Below, one piece after another: positions 4,501 to 55,500 of a DNA stretch of 64,000 nucleotides. Position numbers and translations under genes: made by a program. Origin of the DNA: Eledone cirrhosa (lineage: Eukaryota); the NCBI GenBank assembly GCA_964016885.1, contig OZ024744.1:126728001-126792000 (forward strand), given 5' to 3'. Numbering within the stretch: the stretch's first letter is position 1; the number at the start of each line of letters is the position of its first letter. The notes beneath the pieces are model-generated. The model saw nothing but the letters and a program-made list of their open reading frames with translations. It was not told where the DNA came from and did not search any database.

Positions 4501-7500
4501 AGAATAAATTTTAGTTGTAACGACTGTTATCATGATTAGAGAAAATTTGGTAGTAAATGTATATTTACGGAGCTAAGACGCCGTGGTCCTGAATCGTGCA
4601 TTTATAAAAATACTTGAATATGTATGTATATATATATATATATATATATATATATATATATATATATATATATGGCAAGGACATGGTAACTTGGCTCTTT
4701 TTGTTCTTTAGGCCCAGTGGGAAACTACAATATTTGTCTCATAATACCAGACAGCCCATATATAACTAAATTGTTCTAGCTAATTTAAAATACAACACCT
4801 TATTCTACGTTTTCTTCAAATTGACAACAAACTCTTCCCAAGAAACCCTTCTAGCTTTCCTATTATTTTCTTCCGTATTCTTTTCCAGTTGTGAGTCCTG
4901 TAGAGGACATTATCTCGGAGCCAGTCATAAAAAGAGACGCTGTCTCCAAAAAAGGTAAGTTTTATTTCAAACACAATTTCTATTAGTCTGTACAGAGAAC
5001 TATGACACGTGTTTCAACATTAATGTCAAATCGAGATTACATTATATATTTGTAAGCATGGAAGTCTACATATTGTGTATGCTGGAACTGATGAATAAAA
5101 TAGTGTGTATATATATATATAAGTGAAGTCATGCTAGTGTTTTGCGTATGTTGATCTGTACATATATGTATATTGGGTTGTATATAACATTAACGAGTAA
5201 CAGTTTGTGTGTGTTTCTCCGTTGGTTTGGTGGCTTTTTGAGTGTGTGAACCATGTGTGTGCGTGTGTGACTGTGAGATTCTGTGTACACACACGGTATG
5301 CGTGTGTATTAAGAATACATTTTAGTTATAACGATTAGAGAAAATTTGGTAGTAAATGTATATTTACGGAGCTAACACGCAGTGGGCCTATTTATTTATA
5401 TATATATATATATATATATATATATATATATATATATATATATATATATATATATATATATGTGTGTGTGTATGTATATATATATATTTGGTAAGGACAT
5501 GGTAACTTGGTTCTTTTTGTGTTCGGACCTGGTGTATTTATCAGTATATCAGAGATAATGAATCTAATAACTGTTTTCTGTATTTGTAATATAAATTTGT
5601 ATATATATACATACAGTTTTACTATTATTTTGTTTATGTTTTCTAGCTGACGCTTCATATTTGTCTTCTCGAAGTGCAACACTCAAGACCAAACTTGCCG
5701 AAAAGAGTAAGTTATTAATTTAAAATTATCTATTAATTATTCAGAAACTTATTTATGTTTTGATCAGTAAATGTATAACTACTTATTTCAGACAAGTATA
5801 TTATATTACAATCTCCCTAACATAATCAAGGATAAACATTTTATTGACCTTGATCCTTAGAGACATTACAATGAGGTCAAAAGTAAAGATACACTTTTTC
5901 AAGCTATTATCAGAGTTATCTATGAAAGAATGACATATCTGGTTAAAAAGAGAAGAAGAATGTTGCACAAGATACTTTGAGGTAGATGGAATAATCTCAC
6001 AGATCAGAGTTCTTAACTTTAACAAAATTTCCTCCGACACTTCTTCACTATTTCAGGTCTTCCTTCGTTGTTCATACTCCTTATCCTCGTATGACTAGAT
6101 CAGCTATTGCTCTACATATTTGGTTATCCCATCATATATATTTGTTCTTTATGCACATATGGAAACTACCATATTTGTCTCATAATTCCAGACAGCCCAT
6201 ATATAACTAAATGGGTCTAGGTAATTCAAAATACAACGTCTTATTCTACCATTTCTTCAAATTGATAACAAACTCTTCCCAAGAAAAGCTTCTTGCATTC
6301 CTATTATTTTCTTCCATATTTCTTCCAGTTATTTCACCTGTAGAGAACCTTGTCTCTCAGCCAGGCATAACAATAGACACTGTCTCCAACGAACGTAAGT
6401 TTTATTTCAAACACACTTTCTATTAGTCTGTACAGAGAACTATGACACGTGTTTCAACATTAATGTGAAATCGAGATTACATTATATATTTGTAAGCATG
6501 AAAGTCTACATATTGTGTATGCTGGAACTGATGAATGAAATAGTGTGTATATATATATATAAGTGAAGTCATGCTAGTGTTTTGCGTATGTTGATCTGTA
6601 CATATATGTATATTGGGTTGTATATAACATTAACGAGTAACAGTTTGTGTGTGTTTCTCCGTTGGTTTGGTGGCTTTTTGAGTGTGTGAACCATGTGTGT
6701 GCGTGTGTGACTGTGAGATTCTGTGTACACACACGGTATGCGTGTGTATGTAAGAATACATTTTAGTTATAACGACTGTTATCAAGATTAGAGAAAATTC
6801 AGTAGTAAATGTATATTTACGAAGAAGCTAAGACGCCGTGTTCCTATATATATGTATATATATATATATATATATATATATATATATATATATATATATA
6901 TATATATATATATATATATATATATATATGTATATAAAATATTAAACAAATAATGAATAAACAATTCCTTATATTAAACAAAAAAAGTTCATTATTTAAC
7001 GATCATGATATCCGGAATACATTGAGTTCTTCATACGGATTGGACACTACCGTAAACTCTTGGTTGATTTATCTACATATATATGTATATATATATATTT
7101 GGTAAGGACATGGTAACTTTGGTTCTTTTTGTGTTCGGACCTGGTGTATTTATCAGTATATCAGAGATAATGAATCTAATAACTGTTTTCTGTAGTTGTA
7201 ATATAAACTTGTATATATATACATACAGTTTTACTATTATTTTGTTTATGTTTTCTAGCTGACGCTTCATATTTGTCTTCTCGAAGTGCAACACTCAAGA
7301 CCAAACTTGCCGAAAAGAGTAAGTTATTAATTTAAAATTATCTATTAATTATTCAGAAACTTATTTATGTTTTGATCAGTAAATTTATAACTACTTATTT
7401 CAGTCAAGAATATTATATTACAATCTCCCTAACATAATCAAGGATAAACATTTTATTGACCTTGATCCTTAGAGACATTACAATGAGGTCAAAAGTAAAG

Positions 7501-52500: not shown

Positions 52501-55500
52501 GATCTGTACATATATGTATATTGGGTTGTATATAACATTAACGAGTAACAGTTTGTGTGTGTTTCTCCGTTGGTTTGGTGGCTTTTTGAGTGTGTGAACC
52601 ATCTGTGTGCGTATGTGACTGTGAGATTCTGTGTACACACACGGTATGCGTGTGTATGTAAGAATACATTTTAGTTATAACGACTGTTATCAAGATTAGA
52701 GAAAATTCAGTAGTAAATGTATATTTACGAAGCTAAGACGCCGTGTTCCTATATATATGTATATATATATATATATATATATATATATATATATATATAT
52801 ATATATATATATATATATATGTATATATATATATTTGGTAAGGACATGGTAACTTGTTTCTTTTTGTGTTCGGAACTGGTGTATTTATCAGTATATCAGA
52901 GATAATGAATCTAATAACTGTTTTCTGTATTTGTAATATAAATTTGTATATATATACATACAGTTTTACTATTATTTTGTTTATGTTTTCTAGCTGATGC
53001 TTCATATTTGTCTTCTCGAAGTGCAACACTCAAGACCAAACTTGCCGAAAAGAGTAAGTTATTAATTTAAAATTATCTATTAATTATTCAGAAACTTATT
53101 TATGTTTTGATCAGTAAATTTATAACTACTTATTTCAGTCAAGAATATTATATTACAATCTCCCTAACATAATCAAGGATAAACATTTTATTGACCTTGA
53201 TCCTTAGAGACATTACAATGAGGTCAAAAGTAAAGATACACTTTTTCAGGCTATTATCAGTGTTATCTATGAAAGAATGACATTTCTGGTTAAAAAGAGA
53301 AGATGAATGTTGCACAAGATACTTTGAGGTAGATGGAATAATCTCACAGATCAGAGTTCTCATCTTTAACAAAATTTCCTCCGACACTTCTTCATTATTT
53401 CAGGTCTTCCTTCGTTGTTCATACTCCTTATCCTCGTATGACTAGATCAGCTATTGCTCTACATATTTGGTTATCCCATCTTATATATTTGTTCTTTATG
53501 CACATATGGAAATTACCATATTTGTCTCATAATTCCAGACAGCCCATATATAACTAAATGGGTCTAGGTAATTCAAAATACGACGTCTTATTCTACCATT
53601 TCTTCAAATTGATAACAAACTCTTCCCAAGAAAAGCTTCTTGCATTCCTATTATTTTCTTCCATATTTGTTCCAGTTATTTCACCTGTAGAGAAATTTGT
53701 CTCTGAGCCAAGCATACCTATTAATGCTGTCTCCAAAGAATGAAAATTGTATTTCAAACACACTTTCTATTAGTTTGTACAGAAAACTATGACACGTGTT
53801 TCAACATTAATGTCAAATCGAGATTACATTATATATTTGTAAACATGGAAGTCTATATATTGTGTATGCTGGAACTGATGAATAAAATAGTGTGTATATA
53901 TATAGAAGTGAAGTCATGTTGGTGTTTTGCGTATGTTGATGTATACACATATGTATATTGGGTTGTATTTAACATTATCGAGTAACTGTTCGTGTGTGTT
54001 TGTCCGTTGGTTTGATGGCCTTTTGAGTGTGTGAGTGTGAGGTTCTCTGTGCACACTTTCTATGCGTATGTATGTAAGAATTAATTTTAGTTATTACCAC
54101 TGTCATCATGATTATAGAAAATTTGGTAGTAAATGTATATTTACGGAGCTAAGACGTCGTGATACTGAAAGGTTTCATTTACACAAATATATATATATAT
54201 ATATATATATATATATATATATATATATATATATATATATATATACGTATGTACACGTACATACATATATGTATACAGACGTACAGTAGTATGTATAAAT
54301 ATATACATACAGGCACACACATATATATATGTACATATGGATTAACCGAACATTTATTATAATGCTTGGTTTGTTTGTAAACAAACATCCCGTATTAAGC
54401 CTAGTGTCTAGCAACCATCGTTGCTCGTTTGTTCAACACTCACAAAGGAACGCTGTACTAGTTTCAAGATTATTAGCTATCGTCAGCAACGTATACCTGC
54501 CTGCCAATTTATTGAACGTATATACTTACCTTATGCATATTAATGGCTGAGTAGCCCAATTACATTATCTATATATATAAAGCTGTGGTTGTCTGTCTGT
54601 CTATCGATTTTTGGCACACATCTCCTCTTAGAATCTCTGATGGAATTCCACCGACATTGCTATACTTGTACATTGAGCCCTAGCGAAGACATCGGAAAAA
54701 AAATATTTCAAATTGACCCACCCTATGTGACGAAATCGAATCTATTGTATCGATTTTTGAGCGTAAGTGACGAGTTATTTCCCTTTGTTCTGTTTACATT
54801 GAGCGTCTTACGTTCTTTCGAACACTAAGCTTCCGTTTTGCTTCATTTACAAATAAAAGCCTTTTAAAACAATATTTTTACTTGAAAACAAGTCTATTTT
54901 ACTACGTAAAACAAGCAAATATTTCGTAAAAAAAAGCAAAAATTAGATAAGTTTATTTAAAATATATGTATCTGTAAATTTCGTTAGGCGTGCAGACAGA
55001 CAGTCGTGCAGACAGACTTTAATCCAAAAAAGAAACTTAACATTGTAACTTTAACACAGCTACTGAGCGACCCCGAGCAACGCCGGGCTTAACTGCTAGT
55101 ATATTATATATTTGTAAACATGGAAGTCTATATATTGTGTATGCTGGAACTGATAAATAAAATAGTGTGTATATATAAGTGATGTCATGGTGGTGTATGA
55201 CTAGATCAGCTATTGCTCTACATATTTGGTTATCCCATCATATATATTTGTACTTTATGCACAGATGGAAACTACCATATTTGTCTCATAATTCCAGACA
55301 GCCCATATATAACTAAATGGGTCTAGGTAATTAAAAATACGACGTCTTATTCTACCTTTTCTTCAAATTGATAACAAACTCTTCCCAAGAAAAGCTTCTT
55401 GCATTCCTATTATTTTCTTCCATATTTATTCCAGTTTATATAGCTGTAGATAACCTTTTCTCTGACCCAGGCATAAAATCAGACGATGTCTCCAAAGAAC

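What the first reader, a model, noticed from the sequence alone, without database searches (positions are those of the whole stretch)
5647..53741. Every splice combination stays in frame and stop-free: potential for combinatorial, length-variable isoforms
Seen: exon ends contribute a, c or g and exon starts contribute tt, tc or ct. All junction codons are therefore sense (att, atc, cct, gct, act, ctt, gtt) for A-B, B-A, A-A and B-B joins. Established: symmetric-phase exon arrays permit free skipping, as in titin PEVK exons, and phase 1-1 modules are common in extracellular proteins. Inference: protein length and composition could be tuned both by splicing and by unequal crossover without loss of frame.
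Basis: partly seen in the sequence, partly recalled or inferred. Interest (0 to 1): 0.7.

Follow-up and report, generated by a model that had tools for sequence, protein, structure and literature searches.

The report
Symmetric micro-exon array, 17-gene family
The tiny repeated exons do join in frame in any order, but that follows automatically from copying two same-phase exons; they likely belong to a real gene, one of about 17 relatives whose length differs by DNA copy number, and no RNA was available to show mix-and-match splicing.

Summary
Observation largely right, inference unproven. 5647-53741 holds 64 phase 1-1 exon copies (32 A of 66 nt, 32 B of 60 nt); 0 of 2,016 pairwise junctions gives a stop. 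This is not surprising: only two ancestral exons were copied, and a phase-1 stop needs T followed by AA, AG or GA. 'Every' is too strong: 4 of 64 copies lack a canonical splice site, and reading past the three GA donors meets a stop. The array is longer than reported (83 copies, 1493 to about 67400). It lies between an ATG exon 2.8 kb upstream and candidate tail exons, and the ATG exon has 17 matches in the genome. The frame is under selection (2 stops against about 21 expected; controls neutral) while the amino acids are not (dN/dS about 1; exons change 1.6 times faster than their intron). Repeat number differs between paralogues (42-119), so DNA-level length change is shown. Splice contexts are near-identical and 46 of 60 intact copies encode the modal peptide, so regulated combinatorial splicing has no support; only fixed skipping of dead copies is predicted. 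The predicted 1,733-aa protein has no signal peptide and no known relative. Same architecture as schistosome SmPoMuc.

The parts
5647..53741 (+). Homogenised core of the array: 32 B (60 nt) and 32 A (66 nt) phase 1-1 exon copies in about 1.45-kb B-intron-A-intron units; B-A intron mostly 622 nt, A-B intron varies with a TA microsatellite
1493..4954 (+). Five diverged repeat exons before the core (A 1493, A 2456, B 3387, A 4079 with GA donor, A 4889). The ATG exon (226 nt, ends in phase 1) lies about 2.8 kb upstream of the window, L010:7164-7389
55435..62980 (+).
922..980 (+). Decayed B-like copy: intact acceptor, no canonical donor, in-frame stop; would have to be skipped
4079..4144 (+). A copy with GA in place of the GT donor and a stop directly after it; lies upstream of the whole core, so the core is translated only if this copy is skipped or its GA donor is used
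26931..26996 (+). A copy with acceptor AG>AT
40677..40742 (+). A copy with GA donor
50795..50860 (+). A copy with GA donor
53676..53741 (+).
57854..57919 (+). A copy with GA donor
62058..62123 (+). A copy with GA donor and a stop directly after it
31748..34123 (-). Intronic insertion with about 310-nt inverted ends and a reverse-transcriptase-like frame (weak RVT_1 match, below the curated cut-off); Penelope-like by recall; not found in the long introns of the seven other full-length arrays examined

Best explanation
The window holds most of a likely protein-coding gene whose middle is 83 tandem copies of two phase 1-1 micro-exons; any join between them stays in frame as a by-product of that shared phase, and repeat number differs between the genome's paralogues. 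Shown: the anatomy, the 17-member family, selection against stops and frameshifts, free amino-acid change, and copy-number differences. Inferred mechanism: unequal crossover and gene conversion add, remove and homogenise units, and because each exon is frame-neutral single copies are disposable. Copies that lose a splice site (8 of 83 here) would simply be skipped every time, giving five fixed B-B joins, as a donor mutation does to a symmetric titin exon. The main product would be one long form of about 1,730 aa, Ser/Thr-rich, likely disordered and intracellular, with a constrained basic, Cys-containing N-terminus as anchor and alternating acidic A and basic B modules carrying Ser-Pro sites as a length-variable spacer. 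Occasional skipping of intact copies is probable but would mostly change length, not content.
For: Anatomy. Family: the ATG exon has 17 matches of 17 candidates scored (7 at 99-100% including this one, 3 at 93%, 7 at 79-82%); a tail exon has 11. Frame selection: 162 distinct full-length exon sequences, 603 substitutions on a spanning tree, 2 with a stop against 20.6 expected; in 32 representative units the true frame shows 0 stop events against 9.3 expected, shifted frames 39 against 25.4, nine intron windows 30 against 30.6; 8 of 11 off-length exon variants are multiples of three against 3 of 33 intron gap runs. ATG exon dN/dS 0.14-0.58 between subfamilies, repeats 0.80-1.40. Copy number 83, 86, 82, 80, 80, 76, 42, 119 in eight full-length arrays; duplicated 9.7-kb block; B-B runs written into the DNA of older paralogues. 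Joining intact exons gives 1,581-1,751 aa in 6 of 7 young paralogues. Disposable copies: in 155 core units new variants are as dense in exons as in the intron (0.26 vs 0.28 per site; 23 nonsynonymous, 6 synonymous, 1 stop, 1 splice loss). Titin precedent: PMC11578113, passages.
Against: No transcript was seen, so every splice is predicted. The neutral pattern of recent mutations is equally what young pseudogenes would show; the frame signal is from older divergence. A decayed copy (922) and a GA-donor copy (4079) precede the core, and the long product depends on both being skipped. The GA donor is found on two different exon bodies and on 5-11 copies per gene in six of seven young paralogues, more spread than plain decay suggests. 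The 3' end is uncertain: the 93% paralogue has stops in the two last exons. One young paralogue stops at 191 aa, and two of four older paralogues examined have a broken ATG exon. The spanning-tree count overstates substitutions where exons are recombinant. The function (anchor plus spacer) rests on composition alone.
Confidence: 0.62

Rival explanations
1. One reading: transcripts skip intact A and B exons in many combinations, so one gene makes a ladder of length and charge variants (A-A, B-B joins), as SmPoMuc and oyster bindin do.
For: All joins are in frame; exon ends match the U1 consensus poorly (donors 5-7 of 9 positions in the core) and exons are short; SmPoMuc transcripts carry 1-100 repeats from genes with at most 20 (PMC2576457, sections 20 and 22 read); bindin repeat number is set by splicing (PMC5712786, passages).
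Against: Acceptor 40-mers are identical in 26 of 28 intact A and 30 of 32 B copies, donors in 27 of 28 and 30 of 32, so nothing marks copies for separate control; 46 of 60 intact copies give the modal peptide. Symmetric phase is required for any tandem exon duplication to survive and so does not imply alternative splicing.
Confidence: 0.17
2. The seven young copies, this one included, are silent or decaying segmental duplicates; the array now expands as a macrosatellite and the frame signal is inherited from an ancestral gene.
For: Neutral spectrum of recent mutations; splice-dead units are themselves amplified in tandem; about 120 kb around the gene is duplicated as a block with C18 7.7 Mb; early stop in C18 9.3 Mb.
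Against: ATG exon intact in all seven with dN/dS 0.14 against the 93% paralogue; 6 of 7 keep a 1,581-1,751-aa frame; the copies are too young for decay to be told from function.
Confidence: 0.13
3. The GA-donor A copies are functional: either spliced as GA-AG introns, or used as alternative last exons (stop at or just after the lost donor, AATAAA about 145 nt further on), so that protein length is chosen by where the transcript ends.
For: GA donors recur on different exon bodies and are amplified; stops follow after 0 or 10 codons; AATAAA follows 51 of 55 GA copies; GA-AG introns exist in some animals (PMC7072748, passages).
Against: AATAAA also follows 208 of 227 GT copies, so it is part of the unit and not enriched; supported GA donors are preceded by a conserved AG whereas these end in AAC or AAT and match the consensus at only 4-5 of 9 positions; C18 9.3 Mb has GT at the position homologous to 4079.
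Confidence: 0.08

Closest known systems
Schistosoma mansoni polymorphic mucins, SmPoMuc (PMC2576457; abstract, sections 20 and 22 read)
   Same: Lineage-specific multigene family; about 1-kb genomic units, each with a tiny exon, conserved intron and a dinucleotide microsatellite; two repeat types; unit number differs between genes.
   Different: SmPoMuc has one 27-nt exon per unit, at most about 20 units, and cDNA proof of splice variation; here two exons of 60 and 66 nt alternate, 42-119 copies per gene, no signal peptide, no RNA evidence, no sequence similarity tested or expected.
[quoted passage not shown]
   Same: Intracellular, low-complexity proteins assembled by tandem duplication of phase 1-1 exons; shows that the design is common and not confined to extracellular proteins.
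   Different: Single-copy genes with few, conserved, functional modules; here dozens of near-identical modules with dN/dS about 1.
Titin PEVK/PPAK exons (PMC11578113; passages)
   Same: Symmetric repeat exons; a donor mutation causes complete in-frame skipping of one repeat, the fate predicted for the GA-donor copies.
   Different: Titin's skipping is documented and developmental; no homology, and no Ig or Fn3 domains were found in the exons identified here.
Pacific oyster sperm bindin (PMC5712786 review; passages)
   Same: Mollusc gene with tandem exon repeats diversified by recombination, with intronic microsatellites and fast-changing coding sequence.
   Different: Folded F-lectin domains, 1-5 repeats, secreted, splice variation shown; none of this applies or is shown here.

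Membership tests
Symmetric-exon tandem-repeat genes (architectural class) | Repeated exons of 3n length with the same intron phase on both sides | tested here: met
   78 of 78 window copies are 60 or 66 nt, phase 1-1
Symmetric-exon tandem-repeat genes (architectural class) | Reading frame kept by selection | tested here: met
   2 stops vs 20.6 expected; controls
Symmetric-exon tandem-repeat genes (architectural class) | Copy number changes at DNA level without frame loss | tested here: met
   42-119 repeat exons in eight full-length arrays
Combinatorially spliced repeat genes (SmPoMuc, bindin, titin PEVK) | Transcripts of one gene differ in which or how many repeats they include | not testable with these tools
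   No RNA run was offered for this stretch
Combinatorially spliced repeat genes (SmPoMuc, bindin, titin PEVK) | Copies differ in splice-site strength or context so that they can be chosen separately | tested here: not met
   Acceptor and donor contexts identical in about 93-96% of intact core copies
SmPoMuc or other secreted mucins | N-terminal signal peptide | tested here: not met
   Highest 11-residue hydropathy in the first 40 residues 0.15; highest 19-residue value 0.97 over the predicted protein (hydropathy only, no dedicated predictor)
SmPoMuc or other secreted mucins | Ser/Thr-rich tandem repeats | tested here: met
   Ser 16.4%, Thr 9.3%
Any described protein family | Sequence or profile match of the unique N-terminal exon | tested here: not met
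   Pfam: nothing above cut-off; word search: 0 of 41 candidates; atlas: no usable hit; HMMER over 1.84 billion representatives: one weak hit, a repeat protein of a fish judged chance. The 20-aa repeat exons were too short to be searched.
Functional GA-AG introns | GA donor preceded by exonic AG and followed by A | tested here: not met
   GA copies end in AAC or AAT; rule from PMC7072748 passages

The most novel reading that the evidence does not exclude
A young, undescribed 17-gene family builds giant intracellular charge-alternating spacer proteins from interchangeable micro-exons that diverge faster than their own introns, and sets their length at three levels: unequal crossover, spread of a GA 'off' donor by conversion, and transcript-level skipping or early termination at those GA exons.
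Probability: 0.15. Interest if true: 0.65.

Novelty: new member of a known kind. Interest (0 to 1): 0.33.

Why it matters
The junction property itself is textbook and needs no special explanation. What is worth keeping is the gene family: no relative was found in the databases searched, the frame is protected while the residues change freely, and repeat number varies almost threefold among close paralogues. It offers a clean test of whether symmetric exon arrays are alternatively spliced or merely tolerate copy gain and loss, because eight splice-dead copies predict exact B-B joins and private variants mark single copies. Earlier notes of this scan describe several unrelated micro-exon arrays in the same genome, which, if right, makes this a genome-wide habit and lowers the surprise of this one locus.

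Tried and rejected
RNA: no RNA holder listed. Contigs of runs X1, X2, X5, X6 laid on one B-intron-A unit and of X1, X3, X4, X5 on two tail exons cover introns and show no joint at exon boundaries; they behave as DNA and say nothing on expression. Contig depth in X1 was about 7,600-8,200 on the core unit and about 260-280 on the tail, roughly the ratio the assembly implies, but the tool states depth is no copy number, so I do not use it. Homologue searches found nothing; the single HMMER hit (E 3.4e-4) is a fish repeat protein matching 30 positions and was rejected. The repeat exons could not be searched (21 aa, under the 40-aa minimum). Poly(A) use at GA copies: AATAAA not enriched. A folded domain downstream: none recognised; colinearity with the C18 7.7 Mb copy ends near +96 kb (output partly cut) and a simple phase-1 exon scan of 100 kb on each side gave only three convincing exons; a missed exon is possible. 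No copies on the minus strand. No structure prediction was run (low-complexity repeats, only single exons could be given). Literature searches for a description of this family listed nothing on it; I saw listings and abstract starts only, and subscription journals are not covered. MEG papers were seen only as listings. No supplements were read. Five of the 17 paralogues were not fetched and three only in part (30-40 kb). The organism was not identified here; 'octopus-type' comes from earlier AI notes.
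Full report
1. Observation. A mismatch scan seeded with one A and one B exon found 78 copies in the window, 42 A of 66 nt and 36 B of 60 nt, all on the + strand and all phase 1-1. None has an internal stop, and 0 of 2,016 ordered pairs forms a stop at the junction; the codons are act, cct, att, ctt, atc and ctc. gct and gtt need the g-ending copies at 4889, 56219 and 62915, outside the range. Two things qualify 'every combination'. First, 4 of 64 copies lack a canonical site (acceptor lost at 26931; GA for GT after 40742, 50860, 53741); reading past a GA donor stops after 0 or 10 codons and the next GT is out of frame. 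Second, the result is expected: a phase-1 junction is a stop only if T meets AA, AG or GA (probability 0.047-0.074), and the array descends from two exon types, so about four independent codons were at risk.

2. The gene. The array runs from 1493 to about 67400, 83 copies, and none lies elsewhere in 100 kb on either side. About 2.8 kb upstream is a 226-nt ATG exon ending in phase 1, encoding 75 basic, Cys-containing residues. Downstream are three diverged 63-nt phase 1-1 exons and a candidate last exon with a stop and AATAAA. Joining the exons with canonical or GC sites in a script gives 1,733 aa, 187 kDa, Ser 16.4%, Thr 9.3%, 35 Ser/Thr-Pro sites, no Trp and no hydrophobic segment; A is acidic, B basic. 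Eight of the 83 copies are splice-dead (7 GA donors, 1 acceptor), and a decayed B copy lies at 922. The 922 and 4079 copies precede the core, so the long product requires that they be skipped.

3. The family. The unit is found at 100% identity in arrays on contig C18 (40 scored of 413 candidates). The ATG exon has 17 matches, 7 at 99-100%, 3 at 93%, 7 at 79-82%; a tail exon has 11. I fetched 12 of the 17, nine in full and three in part. Repeat exon numbers are 83, 86, 82, 80, 80, 76 and 42 in the seven young copies and 119 in a 93% copy; the ninth full-length copy is decayed, with a broken ATG exon and four repeat remnants. Older paralogues carry other orders, such as A followed by five B, or B-B-A. 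One young copy has a 9.7-kb block duplicated together with a 4.5-kb insert-bearing intron, 99% identical. About 120 kb around the gene is shared with the C18 7.7 Mb copy. Six of seven young copies keep 1,581-1,751-aa frames; the seventh has a stop in a B exon with intact splice sites and ends at 191 aa unless that exon is skipped.

4. Selection. Among 162 distinct full-length exon sequences, 603 substitutions on a spanning tree predict 20.6 stops; 2 are seen. In 32 representative units the true frame has 0 stop events against 9.3 expected, the two shifted frames 39 against 25.4, and nine intron windows open in the reference 30 against 30.6. Of 11 off-length exon variants 8 are multiples of three, against 3 of 33 intron gap runs. 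The residues are not constrained: dN/dS is 0.80-1.40 for modal repeats between subfamilies, on about 120 sites per pair, but 0.14-0.58 for the ATG exon (0.94 between two close older copies with four differences). Exons change 1.61 times faster per site than the intron between them, at all three codon positions and in both base classes (29 of 32 units, three rearranged units dropped, tree from all columns); since third positions are also fast, this is not by itself proof of positive selection. In 155 homogenised core units of the young copies, new variants are neutral in density and kind. This fits disposable single copies, and also young pseudogenes.

5. Splicing. Nothing shows alternative splicing. 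The 40 bases before the acceptor are identical in 26 of 28 intact A and 30 of 32 B copies, the donors in 27 of 28 and 30 of 32; the 60 intact copies encode 11 peptides and 46 encode the modal one. Skipping would change length and the A:B ratio and little else. What the DNA does predict is fixed skipping of dead copies, giving 5 B-B and 3 A-A joins in this gene and up to 10 B-B in others. A donor mutation in a symmetric titin PPAK exon has this effect (PMC11578113, passages). The GA donors match the consensus at 4-5 of 9 positions and lack the exonic AG of functional GA donors (PMC7072748, passages). Their presence on two exon bodies and their tandem spread is not fully explained; hitch-hiking by conversion is my reading.

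6. Comparison and verdict. The architecture is that of SmPoMuc (PMC2576457, sections 20 and 22) and of disordered proteins built from 1,1 exons such as calpastatin and MAP2 (PMC3632108, section 19); oyster bindin is a mollusc case with splicing shown (PMC5712786, passages). It works like these in design but is not a member by sequence or secretion. No relative was found. Two earlier notes of this scan describe other members of the same family and agree; they are not independent support. The junction symmetry is ordinary, DNA-level length tuning is shown, combinatorial splicing is possible but unsupported, and the anchor-plus-spacer function is inference. Interest 0.33.

Noticed in passing
window 31748-34123: 2.4-kb intronic insertion with inverted ends and a minus-strand reverse-transcriptase-like frame followed by a short frame with a GIY-YIG-like motif (recalled); Penelope-like by recall; private to this copy among the eight full-length arrays examined.
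   Followed up: partly
window and 11 paralogues, B-intron-A units: Repeat exons diverge about 1.6 times faster than the intron between them, third codon positions included; the ATG exon is also less conserved than its flanks against old paralogues. Cause unexplained.
   Followed up: partly
window 4144, 40742, 50860, 53741, 57919, 62123 and C18 paralogues: The same GA donor sits on two different A-exon bodies and is amplified up to six times in a row near the 3' end of the C18 arrays.
   Followed up: partly
L011:3540-4990 (67540-68990): About 15 copies of a roughly 96-nt tandem repeat directly behind the last A exon; longer in the C28 4.5 Mb paralogue.
   Followed up: no
L011:7282 (71282): Exon-like acceptor with no clear donor and an early stop in the young paralogues; open with a possible donor in the decayed C28 28.8 Mb copy.
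   Followed up: partly
L012:8430 to about 91500: About 9 kb of short-period CA-rich satellite inside the duplicated block.
   Followed up: no
G000 C28 126.70-126.82 Mb and C18 5.1-9.4 Mb: Seven near-identical copies of a block of about 120 kb (extent measured for one pair), six within 4.3 Mb of C18 in both orientations and one on C28: a recent interchromosomal segmental duplication.
   Followed up: partly
L010:660-5640: Decayed non-LTR retroelement-like fragments upstream of the ATG exon, followed by a long CAC-type repeat (read by eye).
   Followed up: no
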